From assembly GCA_964441335.1 (NCBI GenBank), contig CAYTUI010000003.1, positions 1 through 49,086 of the forward strand: a stretch of 49,086 bases of DNA, given 5' to 3'. Positions 2,874 through 28,979 of the stretch are shown here, piece by piece. Under the pieces are notes generated by a model. The model saw only the letters and a list, made by a program, of their open reading frames with translations. It ran no database searches and was not told the origin of the DNA. Origin of the DNA: an uncultured Gammaproteobacteria bacterium (GTDB taxonomy: Bacteria > Patescibacteriota > Patescibacteriia > UBA1558 > 2-01-FULL-52-15). Positions within the stretch are counted from its first letter, which is position 1. The number at the start of each line of letters is the position of its first letter. The position numbers were made by a program, and so were the translations under genes.

Positions 2874-5800
2874 ATGCCAACTCCTTCAACAACCAAGACA
2901 ACTTTTTTGCCGCAGGAACCAACCACAGAACCGATTGAGTTTGAATCAATCCGTTTACGCTTGGCTTCGCCTGACGACATCCATAAATGGTCCTCCGGAG
3001 AAGTTCTGACCCCCGAGACCATTAATTATCGTACCCAAAAGCCCGAGCGGGACGGTCTATTCTGTGAAAAAATATTTGGGCCGACCAAGGACTGGGAATG
3101 CTATTGCGGAAAATACAAACGTATCCGCTACAAAGGTATTGTCTGCGATAAGTGCGGCGTGGAAGTTACCCGCAGTATCGTGCGTCGCGAACGCATGGGG
3201 CATATTGATTTGGCCGCGCCGGTTTCGCACATTTGGTTCTTACGCGGTGTACCCTCAAAGATCGGCCTACTATTAGACATCTCCGTTCAGGATTTAGAAA
3301 AGGTTATTTACTTTGCCAGCTTTATTATTACTTCAGTAGATGAAACTTTACGACAGGAAACCCTGGAACAGATTAAAAACGAACTGAACACCAAGCGAAA
3401 ACAAATTGATAATGAGTTCAATCAGAAACAGCAGGAAGTCAACAAGAAAAAGAACAAAATGTTGTCCGAAGGTAAAGAACTAAAGATTGTGGAACAGTTA
3501 ACTGACGAGGAATTGATGAAACTGAATTCCGGCAAGATTGATAAAATATCCAAACTGGAAGAAGCCGCCGATATCGCCCGTAAAGAACTTAAAGAACTGC
3601 GACCAAAGCTGATTATTTCCGAATCAAAATATCAGGATCTATCTTTAAAATATGGTCATGTTTTTGAAGCCCGCATCGGCGCCGAAGGTATTAAATACCT
3701 GTTACATCAGATTGACCTGGAAAAAATAACCAAAGAACTGGACACCGAAATTGAAACAGTTATTACTTCCAAAAAGAAAAAAATGATTCGCCGTTCACGA
3801 TTGATCAAGAGCTTGCTGGTCAATAAGATTAGCCCCTCTTGGATGATCATGGACGCTGTACCGGTCATTCCTCCGGACCTGCGACCAATGGTGCAGTTAG
3901 ACGGTGGCCGCTTTGCCACTTCCGATTTGAACGACCTATATCGCCGCGTTATTAACCGCAACAACCGTTTAAAAAGACTTAAGGAACTGAACGCTCCGGA
4001 AATTATTCAGCGCAACGAAAAAAGAATGTTGCAGGAAGCGGTTGACGCTCTGATTGACAACAACGCCAGACACGGCAAAACCACCACCTCTTCAACGGGT
4101 CAGAAAAGAATGCTCAAGAGTATTGCCGACATGCTTAAAGGTAAGCAGGGTCGTTTTCGTCAGAACCTTTTGGGTAAACGTGTTGACTACTCCGGCCGTT
4201 CCGTTATCGTGGTCGGTCCTCACTTAAAACTGCATCAGTGCGGTTTGCCGAAGAAAATGGCTTTGGAGATTTACCGACCGTTTGTTATTTCCAAACTGAT
4301 TGCGGCGGAAATCGTTCACAACGTCCGTAGCGCTAACCGTTATATTGAAGAGGGTCACGCTGAAGTCTGGGACATTCTGGAATCTGTCACTAAAGGCTCG
4401 CACGTTATGTTAAACCGCGCTCCAACTTTGCACCGTTTAGGTATTCAGGCTTTTCAACCAATCTTAATTGAAGGTAAAGCGATTCAGCTCCACCCTCTGG
4501 TTTGTAGCGCCTTTAACGCTGACTTTGACGGAGACCAGATGGCTGTCCATTTACCGTTAACAGAAGCTGCCAAAAAAGAAGCTGGCGACTTAATGTTGGC
4601 TTCCAACAACTTGTTAAAGCCGGCAACCGGCGAACCGATTACCAGTCCGAGTCAGGATATTGTCTGGGGAGTTTACTATTTGACTTATGTTAATCCCGAG
4701 GACAAGGTGGAAAAATTCTTCAGCAATCAGGATGAAGCTGAAGCCGCCTACAAAATGAATAAAATTGGTTTACAACAGCCGATTCGCGTCAGACACCAGG
4801 GCGAGACTTTGATTACCAGCGTTGGCCGTCTAATCTTTAACGCCATTCTGCCTCCAAAATTTGAGTTCATTAATGAAACGATGACCAAGAAACATGTTAA
4901 AAAAATTGTGGCTGATGCGATTCATAAAATACCGGGCGATAAAGTAGTGGAACTTTTGGATGCTATTAAAGATATCGCCTACACTTACATGACCGTCTCC
5001 GGTTTATCCTGGGGCATGGGCGACATTCCGGAACTTAAGGAAAAGAAAGACCTGATCGCCGAGGGCGAAAGTCAAATTGAAAGTATTCAGCAACAGTTCA
5101 ACGATGGTCTATTAACCGACCGCGAACGTTACATTAAAGTTATTGAAGCTTGGACCTCAATTAAAAACAGAATTACTGATATCAGCAAACAGGCTTTTGA
5201 TCCCAAAAATTCTGTCCACACGATTATTGAATCCGGCGCCCGCGGAACCTGGGCCCAGATGATTCAAATCATGGGTATGAAAGGTTTGGTGATTAACCCG
5301 GCCGGAGAAATTATTGAACTGCCGGTTAAAGCTAACTTTCAAGAAGGTTTGGACGTTTTGGAATACTTTATTTCCACCCATGGTACCAGAAAAGGTTTGT
5401 CTGACACAGCCTTAAGAACAGCCAACGCCGGTTATCTGACCAGACGTTTGGTTGATGTGGCCCAGGACTTGGTCGTCATTGAAAAAGACTGTAAAGATAC
5501 CGAGGGCAGAGTCTTGACCAAAGAAGACACCGAGGAAATGAATGATACTCTGGCCGAAAGAATCAGCGGACGCTTCTTAGCCGCTGACCTGAAAGACAGC
5601 AAAGGTAAAGTAGTATTTAAACGAGGCGACCTGATTACTCTTGACGATATTAAGAAAGTCCAGAAAGCCGATCCAGCTGTGGCGATTATTCGTTCGGCTT
5701 TGACCTGCAAGGCTGTGCGCGGCGTTTGCCAAACCTGTTATGGTTTTGAACTTGGTCATAATGAACTGGTTAAACTAGGAACAGCTGTTGGTATTATTGC

Positions 5801-23461: not shown

Positions 23462-25192
23462 TTATTCCCTCTTGATACGCAAAACTTCAGTAATGGTTGT
23501 GACACCTAACAGAGCCTTTAGCAAACCATCCTCAAAAATAGTCACCATGCCTTGCTCCACGGCCGCTTTATTTAATTCATTAGAAGAAGCGCTACGAATA
23601 ATCGCCTCTTGCACCACATCAGTATTTTCCATAATTTCCATTACTCCAATACGTCCTTCATAACCGGAATTATGACAGCGGAGACAGCCCTTGCCTTTAT
23701 AAAAAGTCAGATCTTTAAAAGATTTTACCTCGGCTTCCACTACTTTCAATTCTTTAAAACGTTCTAACATCTTTTCCAACGCGAATTCCTTACTTAAACT
23801 CTCCAACTCGTCTTTTGACAATTTAAAACTTTCAATGCAATCAAGGCATATTCTCCTGACTAGACGTTGCGCGACTACGACGTTTAGAGTAGAGGAAACC
23901 AGAAAAGGTTCTACTTCCATATCTAATAATCGTGGCGGAGCGCCAGCGGCGTTGTTAGTGTGCAAAGTAGATAAAACCAAATGTCCTGTTAAAGCCGCCC
24001 GCACGGCAATCTGGGCGGTTTCTTTATCTCTGATTTCTCCAATCATAATGATGTCCGGGTCTTGCCTTAGCAGGGCTCTTAAACCGGTGGCAAAATCATA
24101 ACCGGCCTGCAGGTTGACTTGAGTCTGGTTAACTCTTCTGACGCCGTATTCAATCGGGTCTTCAATAGTACTAATATTGACTCCCTCGGTATTCAAAATA
24201 TTCAAAATAGAATACAGGGTGGTGGTCTTACCGGAACCGGTCGGTCCGACTACCAGAATCATACCAAAAGGCTTATCAACTTGCCGCCGCATAATTTTAA
24301 TATTGACATCTGACAACCCCAACTCCTCTAAATTCAAATTTTGTGATTCGTCAGTCATCAATCTCATAACAATCTTCTCACCATAAAAAGCCGGGATAAT
24401 CGATACTCTAACAGACTCCTCCTCGTCCTCAATTTTAAAAGAAAAGCGACCATCCTGCGGTACCCGGTGTTCATCAATACGTAAATTAGCCAAAATTTTA
24501 ATACGCGCCACCAAAGCATCATGAACTGAAGAAGGCAATTCGGCTCGATCTTTCAACTCCCCATCAATTCTGAACCTAATAACCACAGAATCAGGTAGAG
24601 CCTCAATATGAATATCTGACGACTGTTCAAACATGGCGTATTCCAGAACAGTGTCAACAATTTGAATGATGGGTATCTCTATCTGAATCGGCTGGCCATC
24701 AATTTTTCTGACCTTAGAATTGATAATGCTGACCAACTCGTCTTTGATATTCTTTTCATACAATCTGGAGGCAAATCTGAAATTCTTACTGGTCATCAAA
24801 AACGGTACCACCTTCATCTTGGTAGCGGCCTTAATCAGATCAAGGCTTTTTTTACTCTTGGGCTTTACAAAGGCCACTTTTAAAGTATCACCTTCTATTT
24901 CAAAAGGTATGGCCTTGGCGGTATGGACAACTTTTTCATCTATCTCGGCTAAAACTTTGGGGTCTAGCTTACGTTTGCGAAGATTTACATAAGGCACATC
25001 TATCTTGTCCCCTATTAATTCATAAAGAAAAGGCTCCTTTAGCAAACCTCGCTCAACCAAAATATCTTCAATACCGCGGCGGCGGCGCAGAGCATTTTCT
25101 TCGGCTTGAGCCCAGTCATTATCCTTAATAACACCAGAGGTTTTCAGTATCTCCTTTAGTTCATCTTGGGAAATTGGTAATTGTGATGGCAT
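23462..25192 (-). CDS. pilB: Type IV pilus assembly ATPase (GspE/PulE family)
   Basis: GPTGSGKTT, TIEDPIE, LRQDPDIIMIGEIRD, TGHLVLSTLHTN, tetra-Cys motif. Confidence 0.95.
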   Translation of the reverse strand: MPSQLPISQDELKEILKTSGVIKDNDWAQAEENALRRRRGIEDILVERGLLKEPFLYELIGDKIDVPYVNLRKRKLDPKVLAEIDEKVVHTAKAIPFEIEGDTLKVAFVKPKSKKSLDLIKAATKMKVVPFLMTSKNFRFASRLYEKNIKDELVSIINSKVRKIDGQPIQIEIPIIQIVDTVLEYAMFEQSSDIHIEALPDSVVIRFRIDGELKDRAELPSSVHDALVARIKILANLRIDEHRVPQDGRFSFKIEDEEESVRVSIIPAFYGEKIVMRLMTDESQNLNLEELGLSDVNIKIMRRQVDKPFGMILVVGPTGSGKTTTLYSILNILNTEGVNISTIEDPIEYGVRRVNQTQVNLQAGYDFATGLRALLRQDPDIIMIGEIRDKETAQIAVRAALTGHLVLSTLHTNNAAGAPPRLLDMEVEPFLVSSTLNVVVAQRLVRRICLDCIESFKLSKDELESLSKEFALEKMLERFKELKVVEAEVKSFKDLTFYKGKGCLRCHNSGYEGRIGVMEIMENTDVVQEAIIRSASSNELNKAAVEQGMVTIFEDGLLKALLGVTTITEVLRIKRE

Positions 25193-25254
25193 GAGATTAA
25201 AAATTATTAATCGCTACGCTAAATTATAACATATTTCCAGATTTTTTGTCGGAC

Positions 25255-25282
25255 TTGCTTTTATCAAACTTTTCCGTATACT
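25255..25282 (+). promoter_or_regulatory. Promoter of the tRNA locus
   Basis: TTGCTT...TATACT about 40 nt upstream of the tRNA-Ser fragment. Confidence 0.5.
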
Positions 25283-25321
25283 GTAAGTGGTTCACCATCA
25301 ATATAACTATGTTTATCGCCT

Positions 25322-25357
25322 GGAAGCGTGGCTGAGTGGTTGAAGGCGCCGCACTCG
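25322..25357 (+). pseudogene. 5' half of a tRNA-Ser gene broken in the anticodon (CG|A)
   Basis: GGAAGCG TG GCTG AGTGGTTGA AGGC G CCGCA CT CG; no matching 3' half seen downstream. Confidence 0.8.
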
Positions 25358-25422
25358 CCCGCTCGTCAAGCGAGCGGGTCAGCTCAATCGCCAGCGCTGT
25401 GCGCTGTAGCGATATGAGCTGA
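25358..25422. repeat. Twin GC-rich hairpin insert in the tRNA-Ser fragment
   Basis: cccgctcg-tcaag-cgagcggg directly followed by tcagctca...cagcgc-tgt-gcgctg...tgagctga. Confidence 0.85.
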
Positions 25423-25449
25423 AAAAATCAATAATAGAAATGAAAAGCG

Positions 25450-25701
25450 ATGATATTTTATTATGTATATGTATTAAAAAGTACTGTCATAAACAGACGA
25501 TATACAGGATCGACTGAAAACTTACCCAGCAGGGTGAAAAACCACAACGACGGAAAAGTTAAATCCACCAAACCATATCGTCCTTGGCAGCTAATATACT
25601 ATGAAGCGCATAGTAGTAAGACTCTTGCCAGAAAAGCTGAAATATTCTATAAAACCGGTCAAGGACGTAGACAGCTAAAAAAGAAGTTGGGAGATGATTA
25701 A
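25450..25701 (+). CDS. Stand-alone GIY-YIG nuclease family protein
   Basis: YYVYVL...YTGST...R...HN...STK.YRPW.LIYYE...ARKAE...K pattern; 83 aa. Confidence 0.92.
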   Translation: MIFYYVYVLKSTVINRRYTGSTENLPSRVKNHNDGKVKSTKPYRPWQLIYYEAHSSKTLARKAEIFYKTGQGRRQLKKKLGDD

Positions 25702-25705
25702 CCAT

Positions 25706-25793
25706 GGTGGATTGGCCGAGTGGTTTAAGGCGCCTCTCTCGAAAAGAGGTCGGGTATTAGCCCGCGTAGGTTCGAATCCTACATCCACCGCCA
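25706..25793 (+). tRNA. tRNA-Ser(CGA)
   Basis: Full cloverleaf: GGTGGAT/ATCCACC acceptor, CCTCT-CTCGAAA-AGAGG, long variable arm, TTCGAAT, G73, CCA. Confidence 0.96.
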
Positions 25794-25829
25794 ACTAAAT
25801 TTCTACTCTTAAACTAAGGCTTAGTCTTA

Positions 25830-25905
25830 ACCAAAATAGTTCAGAATTTAAAATTTTAAGGATTATAATTTGTTTGGGATTTGAAATTTGAGATTTGTGA
25901 TTTAT
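25830..25905. repeat. AT-rich heptamer-periodic element (mainly right arm)
   Basis: tttggga tttgaaa tttgaga tttgtga ttt. Confidence 0.55.
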
Positions 25906-25910
25906 TTAAT

Positions 25911-25982
25911 CGGGGTGTAGCGCAGCTCCGACGCTAGGTCGGAGTCCCGACTTCTGCGAAGCGGAGCGTCGGGATTGGTAGC
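25911..25982 (+). pseudogene. 5' tRNA-Pro-like fragment with twin-hairpin insert in the D-loop
   Basis: cggggtgtagcgcag[ctccgac-gctag-gtcggag tcccgac...gtcggga]ttggtagc, then truncated. Confidence 0.8.
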
Positions 25983-26014
25983 AAAACAAAAGGATAGGTA
26001 TTTTATAAAGTTAT

Positions 26015-26090
26015 CGGGGTATGGCGCAGTTGGTAGCGCGCATGATTCGGGTTCATGAGGCCGCCGGTTCGAGTCCGGCTACCCCGACCA
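26015..26090 (+). tRNA. tRNA-Pro(CGG)
   Basis: CGGGGTA/TACCCCG acceptor, CATGA-TTCGGGT-TCATG, TTCGAGT, CCA. Confidence 0.96.
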
Positions 26091-26144
26091 TCACAAAAAT
26101 AGTGTGCTCGGCATTTTGCTTGATATTTTAATGAAATAGTATAT

Positions 26145-28979
26145 ATGACAAAAGAGGAAGCTAAACAGCAAATTCAAAAGCTCGTTGATAAATATCAAAG
26201 AGTACTAGCAGAAGGAAAAATGAAATCCTACAATGAAGCCCAAACTCGCAACGAGTTTATTGAGCCACTTTTTGAATACTTGGGCTGGGACATGAGAAAT
26301 CTCACCAATGATAATGAAGTTACAACTGAAGAAAACGTCTCAGGAGGTAGGGTTGATTTAGCTTTCCGCTTCAATAATATCCCCGCCATGTTCTTAGAAG
26401 CTAAAGCAATGAAAGTTGATTTGGATGAGTGGAAATGGGCGGAGCAGGCTATCAATTATAGCTGGAACAAAAGTGTTACTTGGGCCGTTTTAACGGACTT
26501 TGAAAGCGTTAAAATATTTAATGCTGAAATCCCTCCCAAAAGCATTTCACAAAATCTTTTCATTGAAATTAAGTGTCAGGATTATATTAATCGTTTTGAC
26601 CAACTTTGGCTTCTCTCAAAGGAGAGTTTTGAACAGAAACTATTGGACAAGGAGGCTCAAAAATGGGGCAAACTGACAACCCGAAAACAAGTTGGTGAAA
26701 AACTTTTTGAGGACTTAATGTATTGGCGTATTTTGCTAACTAATGATTTCAAAAAACAAAATACCTTAACTGACGAGGAATTAGATGAAGGAGTCCAAAG
26801 ACTTCTTGATCGCCTTATTTTCATCCGCACCGCCGAGGATCGAAAAATAGAGCAAAATATTTTACTCTCTCTCCTGAGAGAGTGGGAAAGCAAGGGTAAA
26901 ACACACAATATTTACAAAAGATTGGTAGATGGGTTTCGTTGGTTTGATGAAAATTACAATTCTAAGCTTTTCGCACTTCATTATTGTGAAGAGTGGAAAG
27001 CGAGCGATAAAGTGCTAGTTGAAGTTATAAATGGTCTTTACGAAACAAAAGGCGGCTACCGCTATGACTTTTCCGTTATTTCTGCCGATGTATTGGGCGG
27101 GATTTATGAACAATATTTAAGCTTTGTTCAGGTTCGCAAGGGCGAAGACAAAACAAAATCAAAAAGAAAATCGCAGGGTATTTATTACACGCCAAAATAT
27201 ATTGTGGAGTTCATCGTCAAAGAAACGTTGGGTGAGGTGTTAAAAAAAACGAAGCCTAAAGAGTGGGCGAAAATTAAAGTTCTTGACCCCGCCTGTGGTT
27301 CAGGTTCTTTCCTAACTGCTGCCTACGATATAATTTTGGACGCTCTGGCAAAACAAAATCCGCAAACCTCGCTTTTCGCTAAATTTGATATCCTTAAAAA
27401 AAATATTTTTGGCATAGACCTTGACGCGCAAGCGGTGGAAATTGCTCAACTAAATCTTTTATTAAAAGTTTTATCTCAAAAAACAAAGCTACCAACGCTT
27501 CAGCACAATCTGCGAGTTGGAAATTCACTAATTAAGGTTGGGGATGAGAAATACAAGCCCTTTGATTTCCAGAGCGAATTCAAAGATGCTTTTGAGTCAG
27601 GTGGTTTTGATGTGATTATCGGAAACCCGCCGTATATCAAGGAGTATACTAACCGCGCTGCTTTTGACGGTTTGCATGAAAGCCCTTATTACCAAGGAAA
27701 AATGGATCTTTGGACTCTTTTTGCTTGTCGTGCAATTGATCTGCTTAAAGACGGCGGATATTTAGGTTTTATCGCTCCGAATAATTGGCTGACCAATGCA
27801 GGATCAAGTATTTTTAGAGATAAGATTTTGTCAGAAGGACAAATAATAAAATTTGTGGATTTTGGCGATTTTAAGGTGTTTAAAGACGCTGGTATTCAAA
27901 CCATGATCTTCATATTCAAGAAGATCAAACCAAAGAAAAGCTATGAAACAACTTATGTTAAGGTCGATGATGAAAGTATTAGTGAAGACGCGATAAATGT
28001 ACTTTTACAAACAAATTTTAAATCCAGTAACGACAGTATAGTCAAATTCGAGGCTACAATAAAGCCGCAACAATCAGTTGGAAAGAACATTGCATTTTCT
28101 AATCAGACAAACGCTGAAATTTTAAATAAGATAGAAACAAAGAAAAATTTTGACCTGACCAGTAGGGAAGTCGCGCAAGGTATCGTTTTTCCGCAAGATT
28201 TTTTGAATAAAGCAAACCAGATAAAACTGTCTAATAATTTCAAAGTGGGCCAAGGAATTTTTGGATTATCGGAAAGAGAGAAAGAAAATCTGCATTTGAC
28301 CAAAGAAGAACTAAAATTGGTCAAACCATATTTTACTACTGAACAATTAGGAAGATATTATGGAAATCCAAATAATAAACTTTGGCTCATTTACACAGAT
28401 TCAAAATTTAAAAATCCAAAAGCAATATTACCCTATCCCAACATAAAGGCTCATTTAGATAAATTTAGTGAGGTTATCTCCTCCGACAACAAGCCATATG
28501 GCTTACATCGAGCGCGGGATGAACGATTTTTCGTTGGCGAAAAAATTATTGCTCTGCGCAAATGCCCAAATAGACCAATATTTACTTATACCGACTTTGA
28601 CTGCTATGTATCGGCGACCTTCTATGTTGTCAAAACCGCCCGACTTAATCAGAAATATTTGACTGGATTGTTGAACTCCGCACTCATAAAATACTGGCTC
28701 AAACACAAAGGCAAAATGCAGGGTAGCAACTTCCAGATAGATAAGGAGCCTTTGCTCGACATTCCGATTGTTAAACCGGACGAAACTGAACAGGGAAAGG
28801 TCGCGGTCTTAGTTGATAAGGCAACGAAACTCTACGGCGATTATCGGAGTACATCTGCTAATACCGACAAATGGCATGCACTCAAAGCCGAAATCGAAAA
28901 ACTTAATGGCGAAATTGACGAGACAATTTATAAACTCTATGGACTCACCGCAGAAGAAATCAGAACAATTGAAAAGTAA
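26145..28979 (+). CDS. Type IIG (Eco57I-like) fused restriction endonuclease / N6-adenine methyltransferase
   Basis: N-terminal HsdR_N-like D...EAK...QA nuclease, GIYYTP, DPACGSGSF, GNPPY, TaqI-like C-terminal specificity region. Confidence 0.92.
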   Translation: MTKEEAKQQIQKLVDKYQRVLAEGKMKSYNEAQTRNEFIEPLFEYLGWDMRNLTNDNEVTTEENVSGGRVDLAFRFNNIPAMFLEAKAMKVDLDEWKWAEQAINYSWNKSVTWAVLTDFESVKIFNAEIPPKSISQNLFIEIKCQDYINRFDQLWLLSKESFEQKLLDKEAQKWGKLTTRKQVGEKLFEDLMYWRILLTNDFKKQNTLTDEELDEGVQRLLDRLIFIRTAEDRKIEQNILLSLLREWESKGKTHNIYKRLVDGFRWFDENYNSKLFALHYCEEWKASDKVLVEVINGLYETKGGYRYDFSVISADVLGGIYEQYLSFVQVRKGEDKTKSKRKSQGIYYTPKYIVEFIVKETLGEVLKKTKPKEWAKIKVLDPACGSGSFLTAAYDIILDALAKQNPQTSLFAKFDILKKNIFGIDLDAQAVEIAQLNLLLKVLSQKTKLPTLQHNLRVGNSLIKVGDEKYKPFDFQSEFKDAFESGGFDVIIGNPPYIKEYTNRAAFDGLHESPYYQGKMDLWTLFACRAIDLLKDGGYLGFIAPNNWLTNAGSSIFRDKILSEGQIIKFVDFGDFKVFKDAGIQTMIFIFKKIKPKKSYETTYVKVDDESISEDAINVLLQTNFKSSNDSIVKFEATIKPQQSVGKNIAFSNQTNAEILNKIETKKNFDLTSREVAQGIVFPQDFLNKANQIKLSNNFKVGQGIFGLSEREKENLHLTKEELKLVKPYFTTEQLGRYYGNPNNKLWLIYTDSKFKNPKAILPYPNIKAHLDKFSEVISSDNKPYGLHRARDERFFVGEKIIALRKCPNRPIFTYTDFDCYVSATFYVVKTARLNQKYLTGLLNSALIKYWLKHKGKMQGSNFQIDKEPLLDIPIVKPDETEQGKVAVLVDKATKLYGDYRSTSANTDKWHALKAEIEKLNGEIDETIYKLYGLTAEEIRTIEK

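What the first reader, a model, noticed from the sequence alone, without database searches (positions are those of the whole stretch)
25322..25793. tRNA-Ser broken at its anticodon, then a GIY-YIG nuclease, then a divergent replacement tRNA-Ser(CGA)
Seen: a 5' tRNA-Ser half ends at CT-CG in the anticodon loop, then come two abutting GC hairpins, then AAA (what the loop would read next), an 83-aa GIY-YIG gene, and 4 nt after its stop a complete tRNA-Ser(CGA). The two tRNA copies differ in acceptor (GGAAGCG vs GGTGGAT) and anticodon stems (CCGCA vs CCTCT), so this is not the identical att duplication left by an integrase, and no integrase is present. Established: GIY-YIG domains serve as homing endonucleases. 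Inference: a minimal selfish element that disrupts an essential tRNA gene and carries its own sequence-divergent, possibly cleavage-resistant, isoacceptor, using the resident promoter.
Basis: partly seen in the sequence, partly recalled or inferred. Interest (0 to 1): 0.85.

Follow-up and report, generated by a model that had tools for sequence, protein, structure and literature searches.

The report
Nuclease cassette lodged in tRNA genes
A tiny nuclease gene with two DNA hairpins sits inside what used to be this bacterium's serine tRNA gene, next to a complete replacement tRNA, and the same kind of cassette recurs beside tRNA genes across a whole group of ultra-small bacteria.

Summary
A 36-nt 5' remnant of a tRNA-Ser(CGA) gene is followed by two abutting GC hairpins, an 83-aa GIY-YIG gene and, 4 nt after its stop, a complete tRNA-Ser(CGA).

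- **The remnant is the old resident gene.** It matches 34 of 37 positions of an intact tRNA-Ser(CGA) at the same place, beside pilB, in a same-family genome that lacks the nuclease. The complete tRNA matches relatives at only 25-27 of 36-37 positions.
- **The pattern is general.**
  - 6 of the 9 small GIY-YIG genes in this genome adjoin tRNA genes.
  - 38 of 62 homologous loci, mostly Patescibacteria, have a tRNA within 300 nt, usually with a 5' piece of the same tRNA upstream.
  - A supported clade of 26 nucleases holds 23 that sit before tRNA-Ser.
  - A conserved hairpin pair tracks the nuclease clade.
- **Sites are occupied or empty.** Two syntenic loci hold 0, 1 or 2 cassettes in related genera.
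- **Protein family.** It resembles the single-domain UPF0213 and Ssn-type nucleases, not classical homing endonucleases.

My best reading is a mobile nuclease-plus-hairpin cassette that invades tRNA genes and leaves or brings a working copy. Cleavage, mode of movement and promoter use are not shown. I found no description in the literature searched.

The parts
25322..25357 (+). Dead 5' remnant (positions 1-36, up to CG of the anticodon) of the former resident tRNA-Ser(CGA) gene
   Evidence: Sequence read. It is 91.9% identical over 37 nt to the intact tRNA-Ser(CGA) at the syntenic site of relative G004. No matching 3' half exists anywhere in the genome.
25358..25378 (+). Hairpin 1 of the double hairpin (8-bp GC-rich stem, 5-nt loop)
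   Evidence: Fold. The arms carry the CCGCTC / GAGCGG core shared by 16 aligned loci of the tRNA-Ser nuclease clade, with T-A to C-G exchanges at the outer pair.
25379..25422 (+). Hairpin 2 of the double hairpin (long, bulged stem)
   Evidence: Fold. The outer arms follow the clade consensus, but position 3 carries a two-sided change, C-G to A-T, that keeps the pair.
25423..25449 (+). A-rich leader before the ORF; 25439-25451 is a 13-nt motif shared by paralogous copies
   Evidence: The same motif (AATGAAAAGCGAT, or a one-letter variant) stands directly before the start codon in the C8, C19, C7 and C63 copies and in relative G008. Its function is unknown.
25450..25701 (+). 83-aa single-domain GIY-YIG nuclease gene (stop codon included)
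   Evidence: Pfam PF01541, E 3.9e-14. Y7, Y18, G20, R28, H32 and E64 are invariant among 7 paralogues. The nearest solved structures are UPF0213 proteins, E 1.5e-16. pN 0.215 against pS 0.694 versus the G005 copy at the same locus.
25706..25793 (+). Complete tRNA-Ser(CGA), the only CGA isoacceptor ARAGORN finds in the genome; its sequence is an outlier
   Evidence: ARAGORN and Rfam at 60.9 bits. Its 5' half matches four relatives at 25-27 of 36-37 positions, and its full length is 65-70% identical to theirs. The best match in 400 genomes of the class is 81%.
25911..25982 (+). Second element without an ORF: tRNA-Pro 5' remnant (25911-25925), double hairpin (25926-25944 and 25945-25974), then 8 more tRNA nucleotides (25975-25982)
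   Evidence: Sequence, fold, hairpin pair detected. A like hairpin pair follows a tRNA-Lys remnant on contig C59, 86% identical over 35 nt.
26015..26090 (+). Complete tRNA-Pro(CGG), 32 nt downstream of that remnant
   Evidence: ARAGORN and Rfam at 68.1 bits. Hits of 85-91% identity in relatives.

Best explanation
The locus is one copy of a family of small mobile cassettes that live in tRNA genes of Patescibacteria.

A cassette consists of a conserved pair of abutting GC-rich hairpins, a short leader and a single-domain GIY-YIG nuclease gene of about 83 aa. It lies between a dead piece of a tRNA gene and a complete tRNA gene of the same identity, on the same strand.

**At this locus.** The resident tRNA-Ser(CGA) was broken in its anticodon. 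Its first 36 nt survive upstream. A complete tRNA-Ser(CGA) of a different sequence type follows the nuclease gene and now supplies the function.

**Inferred mechanism (not shown).** The nuclease makes or provokes a break in or beside a tRNA gene. The break is repaired by recombination with a cassette-bearing copy, using the tRNA sequence itself as the homology. The cassette is thereby copied in, together with part or all of a tRNA, and a displaced fragment is left behind. By analogy with Ssn nucleases and their hairpin repeats, the hairpin pair is probably the nuclease's own binding site. The nuclease gene is probably read through from the tRNA transcription unit.
For: **Anatomy shown.**

**The remnant is the old resident gene.**
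- It matches the intact tRNA at the syntenic site beside pilB in G004 at 34 of 37 positions, where no nuclease gene is present.
- G006 and G011 also have an intact tRNA-Ser(CGA) there without a nuclease.
- G005 has a remnant, hairpins, a 70%-identical nuclease and a tRNA.

**Second syntenic series, between tRNA-Gly(GCC) and tRNA-Leu(TAA)**.
- Spacers of 86, 85 and 70 nt without an ORF in G006, G011 and G012.
- 176 nt with hairpins only in G020.
- One cassette in G004 (402 nt) and in this genome (670 nt).
- Two cassettes plus tRNA-Leu fragments in G008 (949 nt).

**Own genome.**
- 6 of 9 small GIY-YIG genes adjoin tRNA genes.
- The C8 copy has an identical 35-nt 5' half of its tRNA-Ser(GGA) upstream.

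**Across genomes.**
- 38 of 62 homologous loci have a tRNA within 300 nt. In 35 of them it lies on the same strand downstream, mostly 5-40 nt after the stop.
- 27 of 34 tested loci carry an upstream match to that tRNA above all 30 shuffles.
- L031 shows two units in tandem.

**Specificity.**
- A clade with SH-aLRT 96 has 26 rows, 23 of them before tRNA-Ser. Another clade (98) has 5 before tRNA-Asp.
- Hairpin sequence follows the nuclease clade rather than the tRNA. L036 and L039 sit before tRNA-Ser, fall with the Asp clade and carry its short hairpin type.
- The hairpin arms keep pairing through two-sided changes.

**Same architecture with a protein gene as target.** In L061 (Verrucomicrobia) a complete integrase gene is followed by hairpins, the GIY-YIG gene, a hairpin and then a duplicated integrase 3' end.

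**The nuclease is under purifying selection.** pN 0.215 against pS 0.694.

**Precedent.** Ssn nucleases are single-domain GIY-YIG proteins of about 94 aa, flanked by hairpin repeats, that cut single-stranded DNA a few nucleotides from the hairpin (PMC11893778, sections 7, 8, 10 and 12 read).
Against: - No cleavage, movement or transcript has been observed.
- No reads or contigs join across an empty site in the same population.
- I found no donor for the divergent tRNA, so in-place rapid change is not excluded.
- The nuclease gene at the pilB locus differs between two genera about as much as pilB DNA does (70% amino-acid identity against about 70% DNA identity). It is also under purifying selection. 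Both fit long vertical residence and a host-useful role as well as they fit ongoing mobility.
- The restored tRNA should remain a target, which is unusual for a homing element.
- The protein has no DNA-binding domain that could read a long site.
- The hairpins do not match the published Ssn motif.
- GC-rich hairpins are common all over this genome: 715 against 136 in a shuffle, and only 63 of the 715 lie within 600 nt of a tRNA.
Confidence: 0.62

Rival explanations
1. The nuclease and hairpins are a domesticated pair with a host function. As proposed for SsnA and its repeats in Neisseria, they would cut incoming or exposed single-stranded DNA next to the hairpins and so control recombination at tRNA loci. 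On this view the tRNA fragments are scars of repeated cutting and repair, and the tRNA neighbourhood mainly provides expression.
For: - Purifying selection on the ORF.
- Divergence of the pilB-locus copy between two genera is similar to that of pilB.
- The published Ssn function is modulation of natural transformation (PMC11893778, section 12).
- Type IV pilus genes lie next door.
- Arrays of displaced tRNA 3' halves of different sequence types stand behind one tRNA-Arg on contig C10, as repeated allele replacement would give.
Against: - Related genera hold 0, 1 or 2 copies at the same site.
- One 1.27-Mb genome carries nine small paralogues.
- Tandem units and the same architecture in an integrase gene of another phylum look like the spread of a selfish unit.
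- A host function does not explain why the gene sits inside a duplicated target.
Confidence: 0.2
2. The hairpin pairs are independent miniature insertion elements, and the local tRNA duplications arise by replication or recombination errors. The GIY-YIG genes merely accumulate near tRNA genes because these spacers tolerate insertions.
For: - Hairpin pairs sit cleanly inside tRNA remnants without any ORF: window 25926-25974, contig C59 and locus L046.
- Hairpins are abundant genome-wide.
Against: - Nuclease clades are specific for tRNA identity, and hairpin type follows the nuclease clade.
- The order remnant, hairpins, leader, ORF, tRNA and the spacing are fixed across candidate phyla.
- Mere tolerance would not place 35 of 62 ORFs just upstream of a same-strand tRNA.
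Confidence: 0.1
3. The remnant is an attachment-site duplication left by an integrase-borne island, since decayed or lying across an assembly break.
For: tRNA genes are common integration sites, and partial tRNA copies usually come from such events (general knowledge; PMC9897764 seen only as a search listing).
Against: - The insert is only 348 nt.
- The duplicated part is the 5' half, and it is not identical to the tRNA.
- No integrase is on the contig, and only two are in the genome, elsewhere.
- No 3' half of the old tRNA exists in the genome.
- The contig is continuous in independent contigs.
- The same small structure recurs in dozens of genomes.
Confidence: 0.03
4. The upstream half is part of a working split or intron-containing tRNA, so the insert would be an intron or the two halves would be joined as RNA.
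For: The break lies in the anticodon loop, where tRNA introns sit. The GC-rich hairpins recall the pairing leaders of split tRNAs in Nanoarchaeum (recalled, not checked).
Against: - No group I or other intron family matched at E up to 10.
- No 3' half able to pair with the GGAAGCG acceptor strand exists in the window or the genome.
- A complete tRNA of the same anticodon follows.
- In other loci the break lies in the D loop or T arm.
Confidence: 0.02

Closest known systems
Ssn family of single-domain GIY-YIG single-stranded-DNA nucleases with flanking hairpin repeats (SsnA/NTS of Neisseria; PMC11893778, sections 7, 8, 10, 12 and 17 read)
   Same: - A GIY-YIG protein of 83-94 aa with no second domain.
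- Conserved tyrosines and glutamate at nearly the same positions: Y6, Y17, E64 in SsnA; Y7, Y18, E64 here.
- The gene is accompanied by conserved hairpin-forming repeats that vary together with the protein.
- The authors note that the gene with its repeats looks like an insertion sequence.
- A copy on contig C30 of this genome is flanked on both sides by a hairpin-bearing repeat of about 45 nt.
   Different: - The published degenerate repeat motif is absent from the locus and not enriched in the genome: 3 matches against 0-7 in shuffles.
- The hairpins here come as an abutting pair on one side of the gene only.
- The gene sits inside a duplicated tRNA gene; the word tRNA does not occur in that paper's main text.
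- Assignment to CDD family cd10448 could not be tested.
UPF0213 proteins (BH0048, PDB 1zg2; EF2693, PDB 1ywl), relatives of the SLX1 structure-specific endonuclease
   Same: They are the best sequence matches among solved structures, at E 1.5e-16 and 5.1e-14 over nearly the whole length. SLX1 chains follow at about 1e-5.
   Different: These proteins have no described function, mobile context or tRNA link. SLX1 acts with a partner on branched DNA in eukaryotes (abstract listings).
Free-standing GIY-YIG homing endonucleases of phage T4, especially SegB in the T4 tRNA gene cluster (PMC2330249 and PMC13096335, abstracts only)
   Same: A GIY-YIG gene lies among tRNA genes. It spreads by cutting genomes that lack it and being copied in with flanking sequence during repair. 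A link to duplication of neighbouring segments is reported (abstracts).
   Different: - Seg proteins are larger and carry a DNA-binding part (recalled).
- The NCBIfam model for intron-type GIY-YIG endonucleases stays far below its cut-off or gives no hit.
- The T4 case involves no tRNA remnant or hairpin pair as far as the abstracts say.
Free-standing endonuclease genes of fungal mitochondria that enter a gene together with a replacement copy of its end, and mitochondrial double-hairpin elements (recalled from Paquin, Lang and co-workers; only search listings seen)
   Same: A complete gene stands beside a displaced partial copy with the endonuclease gene between them. Pairs of abutting GC-rich hairpins lie at the borders of mobile units.
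   Different: Those are organelle genomes with protein-coding targets and mostly LAGLIDADG or long GIY-YIG enzymes. Homology of the hairpins is neither expected nor tested. This comparison rests on memory.
IS200/IS605 elements and REP-associated transposases
   Same: A small nuclease gene is tied to hairpin repeats recognised as single-stranded DNA, and insertion occurs without a target duplication (as summarised in PMC11893778, section 12). Here the hairpin pairs are inserted cleanly, and the tRNA sequence continues after them.
   Different: Those enzymes use HUH/tyrosine chemistry and a different protein fold. They have hairpins at both ends and no duplication of a target gene segment.

Membership tests
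GIY-YIG nuclease superfamily (Pfam PF01541) | Profile match above the curated cut-off | tested here: met
   53.1 bits against a cut-off of 22.6, E 3.9e-14, residues 4-71.
GIY-YIG nuclease superfamily (Pfam PF01541) | Conserved catalytic-core residues (two tyrosines, arginine, histidine, glutamate) | tested here: met
   Y7, Y18, G20, R28, H32 and E64 are invariant in 7 paralogues. The roles are taken from SsnA mutants Y6A, Y17A and E64A in PMC11893778 and otherwise recalled.
UPF0213 / SLX1-like single-domain branch | Full-length sequence similarity to UPF0213 proteins | tested here: met
   1zg2 at E 1.5e-16 (profile positions 3-80) and 1ywl at 5.1e-14.
Ssn family (CDD cd10448) | Single GIY-YIG domain of about 90-100 aa with no other domain | tested here: met
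   83 aa, with one Pfam domain covering residues 4-71.
Ssn family (CDD cd10448) | Assignment to cd10448 rather than to other small GIY-YIG families | not testable with these tools
   No CDD models and no SsnA sequence were on hand. NCBIfam gave no hit for the window protein.
Ssn family (CDD cd10448) | Gene flanked by the Ssn-related hairpin motif as published | tested here: not met
   The published degenerate pattern has 3 matches in the genome against 0-7 in five shuffles, and none between 25000 and 26300. A different conserved hairpin pair is present.
Ssn family (CDD cd10448) | Site-specific cutting of single-stranded DNA next to the hairpin | not testable with these tools
   This needs purified protein.
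Classical GIY-YIG homing endonucleases (I-TevI, Seg proteins) | N-terminal GIY-YIG domain joined to a C-terminal DNA-binding domain | tested here: not met
   The protein is 83 aa in all. TIGR01453 gives no hit for it and 17.6-29.4 bits against a cut-off of 56.05 for three paralogues. PHROGs gives none.
Classical GIY-YIG homing endonucleases (I-TevI, Seg proteins) | Occupied and empty alleles of the same site in related genomes | tested here: met
   pilB/tRNA-Ser site: occupied in G000 and G005, empty in G004, G006 and G011. Gly-Leu site: 0, 1 or 2 copies. These are different genera, not strains.
Classical GIY-YIG homing endonucleases (I-TevI, Seg proteins) | The enzyme cuts the empty allele | not testable with these tools
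   This needs an assay.
Integrase-borne island in a tRNA gene | Integrase gene beside the tRNA and an identical repeat of the tRNA 3' part at the far end | tested here: not met
   No integrase on the contig. The repeat is a non-identical 5' half 348 nt away.
Intron in the tRNA anticodon loop | Recognisable intron RNA and a 3' exon completing the tRNA | tested here: not met
   No intron family matched at E up to 10. No 3' half exists in the window or genome.

The most novel reading that the evidence does not exclude
Single-domain GIY-YIG nucleases with a cognate double hairpin form a distinct class of autonomous mobile elements. Each lineage would home to one kind of conserved gene: tRNA-Ser, tRNA-Asp or tRNA-Leu in Patescibacteria, and an integrase gene in Verrucomicrobia. 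It would do so by cutting single-stranded DNA a few nucleotides from the hairpins and being repaired from a cassette-bearing copy, possibly DNA taken up by natural transformation. On this reading the elements repeatedly replace whole or half tRNA genes with foreign alleles, and they account for the tRNA fragments that flank roughly a third of the tRNA genes in this genome.
Probability: 0.3. Interest if true: 0.85.

Novelty: new variant of a known kind. Interest (0 to 1): 0.72.

Why it matters
- **A natural setting for a newly described enzyme class.** Single-domain GIY-YIG nucleases tied to hairpins (Ssn, 2025) would gain a biological role as the engine of a small element that lives in tRNA genes.
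- **An explanation for tRNA scars.** It would account for why genomes of these ultra-small, uncultured bacteria carry so many tRNA fragments and hairpins, and why a tRNA gene can differ sharply from its counterparts in close relatives. That bears on tRNA annotation and on using tRNA genes as markers.
- **Possible tools.** Each nuclease lineage appears paired with its own hairpin and its own tRNA type. The family therefore offers a ready set of natural enzyme/site pairs to test for programmable cutting of single-stranded DNA.

Tried and rejected
I repeated the search with the window protein alone.

**Negative or uninformative results**
- No RNA holder was listed among public runs.
- Laying contigs of four runs gave no joints, so there is no evidence on empty alleles in the same population.
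- The published Ssn repeat pattern was not found.
- My first hairpin-pair finder, using exact 7-nt arms with at least 5 G or C, found only 7 pairs genome-wide and missed the pair at this locus. A laxer finder run on 27 targets found a pair in 19. In 3 of these (L011, L014, L021) the automatic pick was not the two canonical hairpins, and I dropped them before the pair counts, leaving 16. Positions 1-7 of those counts pair by construction.
- The search for a donor of the divergent tRNA in 400 genomes of the class gave nothing above 81%.
- The promoter scan found no + strand promoter before the remnant. A weak candidate seen by eye at 25255-25282 fails the scan's thresholds.
- The NCBIfam and PHROGs searches gave no usable name.
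- The DNA search around the C8 tRNA-Ser(GGA) copy lacked flanking anchors, so I did not use it as an occupied/empty test.

**Literature**
- I found no paper on GIY-YIG genes with tRNA fragments and hairpins in these bacteria in searches. This covers the held library only.
The supplementary homologue lists of PMC11893778 might show whether such proteins were already counted as Ssn.

**Not done.** I ran no structure prediction or complex prediction.
Full report
**1. What is at the locus**

Reading 24900-26300 shows the following order on the + strand.

| Coordinates | Feature |
|---|---|
| 25322-25357 | 36-nt stretch that reads as the first half of a class II tRNA-Ser, up to CG of a CGA anticodon |
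| 25358-25378 | hairpin 1 |
| 25379-25422 | hairpin 2, directly abutting |
| 25423-25449 | A-rich leader, 27 nt |
| 25450-25701 | ORF of 83 codons |
| 25706-25793 | complete tRNA-Ser(CGA), 4 nt after the stop |

- ARAGORN and Rfam call only the complete tRNA and the tRNA-Pro(CGG) at 26015-26090.
- The hairpins are far more stable than chance: z = -4.36, and 0 of 200 shuffles fold as well.
- The ORF is a GIY-YIG domain at 53.1 bits against a cut-off of 22.6.
- The half and the complete tRNA agree at 28 of 36 aligned positions and have different acceptor and anticodon stems.

It missed a second, smaller copy of the same theme just downstream. A tRNA-Pro remnant at 25911-25925 is followed by a hairpin pair at 25926-25974 and eight more tRNA nucleotides at 25975-25982. 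A 32-nt spacer and the complete tRNA-Pro come next.

**2. The remnant is the old resident gene**

The window is a whole contig of a 1.27-Mb genome in 82 contigs. Titles of homologous loci place it in Patescibacteria.

I compared same-family genomes at the syntenic place, where the tRNA lies divergent from the start of pilB.

- G004 has an intact tRNA-Ser(CGA) and no nuclease. The window's remnant matches its 5' half at 34 of 37 positions.
- G006 and G011 also have an intact tRNA-Ser(CGA) there without a nuclease, of a second sequence type.
- G005 has a remnant, hairpins, a 70%-identical GIY-YIG gene and a tRNA.

The complete tRNA of the window is the outlier.

- Its 5' half matches any of these relatives at only 25-27 of 36-37 positions. 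Its full length is 65-70% identical to theirs, while they are 69-91% alike among themselves.
- In 400 sampled genomes of the class the best match is 81%.
- The neighbouring tRNA-Pro, by contrast, has matches of 85-91% in relatives.

A dead fragment that has stayed closer to the relatives than the working gene argues that the working gene was replaced rather than slowly diverged. I found no donor, however.

The 3' half of the old gene is nowhere in the genome. The only two integrase genes lie on other contigs.

**3. The pattern in this genome**

- A Pfam search of the genome finds ten GIY-YIG matches. One lies in a 564-aa frame and nine are small.
- Six of the nine adjoin tRNA genes: Ser(CGA), Ser(GGA), Leu(TAA), Glu(TTC), Met and Thr(TGT).
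- The Ser(GGA) copy on C8 has an identical 35-nt 5' half upstream, followed by two hairpins. It also has a second remnant of 14 nt with hairpins between the ORF and the tRNA.
- In the Glu copy the order is mirrored: complete tRNA, ORF, hairpins, then an internal tRNA fragment.
- At E up to 0.05, 24 tRNA-like pieces lie outside annotated tRNAs, nearly all beside the tRNA they resemble. One example is an array of three 3' halves of different sequence behind a tRNA-Arg.
- A 13-nt motif directly before the start codon is shared by five copies.

**4. The pattern across genomes**

- Of 62 loci encoding relatives, 38 have a tRNA within 300 nt. In 35 it lies on the same strand downstream, mostly 5-40 nt after the stop. 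Several of the other 24 end at a contig edge.
- In 27 of 34 loci tested, the 600 nt upstream of the ORF match the downstream tRNA better than all 30 shuffles. Three of these hits are a complete neighbouring tRNA and one is doubtful. Short or diverged remnants are visible by eye in some of the rest.
- Remnants end in the anticodon (about position 35), in the D loop (about 13-18) or in the T arm.
- A quick maximum-likelihood tree of 64 proteins has a clade (SH-aLRT 96) of 26 rows, 23 of them before tRNA-Ser of four different anticodons. Another clade (98) has five before tRNA-Asp. Labels cluster far more than in shuffles. The tree rests on only 89 columns and many forks are open.
- L031 shows two units in tandem.

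**5. Occupied and empty sites**

Besides the pilB site, the conserved pair tRNA-Gly(GCC) - tRNA-Leu(TAA) gives a second series.

| Genome | Spacer (nt) | Content |
|---|---|---|
| G006, G011, G012 | 86, 85, 70 | no ORF |
| G020 | 176 | hairpins only |
| G004 | 402 | one GIY-YIG gene |
| this genome | 670 | one GIY-YIG gene |
| G008 | 949 | two GIY-YIG genes and several tRNA-Leu fragments with hairpins |

Here the tRNA-Leu of this genome is 90-93% like those of relatives. A divergent replacement is therefore not a rule.

**6. The hairpins**

- In 16 loci of the tRNA-Ser clade, both hairpins share the arm core CCGCTC / GAGCGG.
- Two-sided exchanges keep the pairs: T-A or C-G at the outer pair of hairpin 1; C-G, G-C or A-T at position 3 of hairpin 2; and T-A or C-G at position 6 of hairpin 2. 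The window carries the A-T variant at position 3.
- The Asp clade has a different pair of short, 15-nt hairpins. L036 and L039 sit before tRNA-Ser but belong to that clade and carry its hairpin type. The hairpins therefore go with the protein, not with the tRNA.
- The pair is a clean insertion. The tRNA copy continues for 3-8 locus-specific nucleotides after it, and then the leader and start codon follow.
- GC-rich hairpins are common throughout this genome and only about twofold enriched near tRNAs. Hairpins as such are not special to these sites.

**7. The protein**

- The nearest solved structures are the UPF0213 proteins 1zg2 and 1ywl (E 1.5e-16 and 5.1e-14). SLX1 follows, and I-TevI only at 8e-4.
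- Models of intron-type endonucleases are not reached.
- The Ssn family described in 2025 (PMC11893778; sections 7, 8, 10, 12 and 17 read) consists of single-domain GIY-YIG proteins of about 94 aa. Their genes are flanked by hairpin repeats. They bind the hairpin as single-stranded DNA and cut a few nucleotides upstream. The authors remark that gene plus repeats look like an insertion sequence.
- Size, single domain, catalytic positions and hairpin association match. The published repeat motif does not, and CDD membership could not be tested.
- That paper's main text does not mention tRNA.
- The ORF is under purifying selection against the G005 copy. pN is 0.215 and pS is 0.694; the ratio after correction is about 0.13, with synonymous sites near saturation.

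**8. Mechanism**

*Shown.*
- The anatomy of the locus.
- The orthology of the remnant to the relatives' intact tRNA.
- The recurrence of the pattern.
- Clade specificity for tRNA identity.
- Hairpin and protein varying together.
- Occupied and empty sites in related genera.

*Inferred.*
- A nuclease-triggered break in or beside a tRNA gene is repaired from a cassette-bearing copy, with the tRNA sequence as the homology.
- This copies in hairpins, ORF and part or all of a tRNA, and leaves a displaced fragment.
- In L061 (Verrucomicrobia) a complete integrase gene is followed by hairpins, the GIY-YIG gene, a hairpin and a duplicate of the integrase 3' end. This fits a general habit of entering a conserved gene while restoring it.
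- That the hairpins are the binding site, and that the constant 3-8 nt offset marks the cut, is analogy with Ssn only.

*Points against.*
- Long residence and purifying selection fit a host-useful role equally well.
- The restored tRNA should remain a target.
- No donor, no transcript and no same-strain polymorphism was found.

**9. Comparison and novelty**

- The parts are known kinds: an Ssn/UPF0213-like nuclease with hairpins, and a free-standing endonuclease gene beside a partly duplicated target. The latter is known for phage T4 SegB among tRNA genes (abstracts) and, from memory, for fungal mitochondria.
- I did not find the combination described in seven literature searches. That combination is lineage-specific residence in bacterial tRNA genes, with a tRNA remnant, a cognate double hairpin and a complete tRNA, across candidate phyla.
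- I rate it a new variant of a known kind, with interest about 0.7.

**10. Limits**

- All genomes are metagenome bins.
- Relatives are different genera, so gain cannot be told from loss.

Noticed in passing
window 25911-26090: An ORF-less version of the same structure stands before tRNA-Pro(CGG). It has a 15-nt tRNA-Pro remnant, a double hairpin, 8 more tRNA nucleotides and a 32-nt spacer before the complete tRNA. A similar hairpin pair (86% over 35 nt) follows a tRNA-Lys remnant on contig C59.
   Followed up: partly
G000 contig C10 31580-31970 (locus L008): Behind tRNA-Arg(TCT) stand three successive copies of its 3' half, starting at the last anticodon base. They have three different T-arm sequences, and two of them are preceded by the same hairpin pair. 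It looks like a record of repeated replacement of half a tRNA gene.
   Followed up: partly
G000 contig C30 1500-2100: A small GIY-YIG gene that is not near a tRNA is flanked on both sides by a direct repeat of about 45 nt containing a hairpin. This resembles the gene-between-repeats layout described for Ssn nucleases.
   Followed up: no
L061 1800-2520 (also L055, L058, L062, L065, L066): In Verrucomicrobia, relatives of the nuclease sit just after an integrase gene, between palindromic repeats, and are followed by a duplicate of the integrase 3' end. A second, partial GIY-YIG copy lies further downstream in L061 (2836-3264).
   Followed up: partly
L028, L038, L041, L052, L056 (around 1950-2300 of each): Relatives without a neighbouring tRNA are bracketed by inverted repeats of about 20 nt on either side of the ORF, so the ORF lies in the loop of a long stem.
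   Followed up: no
L098 (G004) and L099 (G008): In G008 one GIY-YIG gene follows tRNA-Gly directly and is itself followed by a duplicate of the tRNA-Gly 3' end. The second ORF carries the same leader motif before its start codon as the copies in the window's genome.
   Followed up: partly
L076 reverse strand 3500-3600 (G004, downstream of its intact tRNA-Ser): A 3' fragment of a second type of tRNA-Ser, with hairpins inserted in its T loop, lies just behind the intact gene at the 'empty' site. That site has therefore also seen such events.
   Followed up: no
window 26145-28979: A 944-aa ORF directly after tRNA-Pro has the look of a fused restriction-modification enzyme, including an NPPY-type methylase motif in the translation. 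I did not examine it.
   Followed up: no
G000 contig C2 28277-28370; whole genome: ARAGORN reports a 94-nt tRNA of undetermined type with a 2-base 'anticodon'. It finds only 43 tRNAs, with no tRNA-Ser(TGA) or tRNA-Ser(GCT). Some tRNA genes may be interrupted, unassembled or missed.
   Followed up: no
G000 contig C24 17269-17335: A 66-nt stretch 97% identical to part of the spacer upstream of the C19 nuclease gene (L002 507-572, which holds a tRNA-Leu fragment and hairpins) lies near tRNA-Cys on another contig.
   Followed up: no
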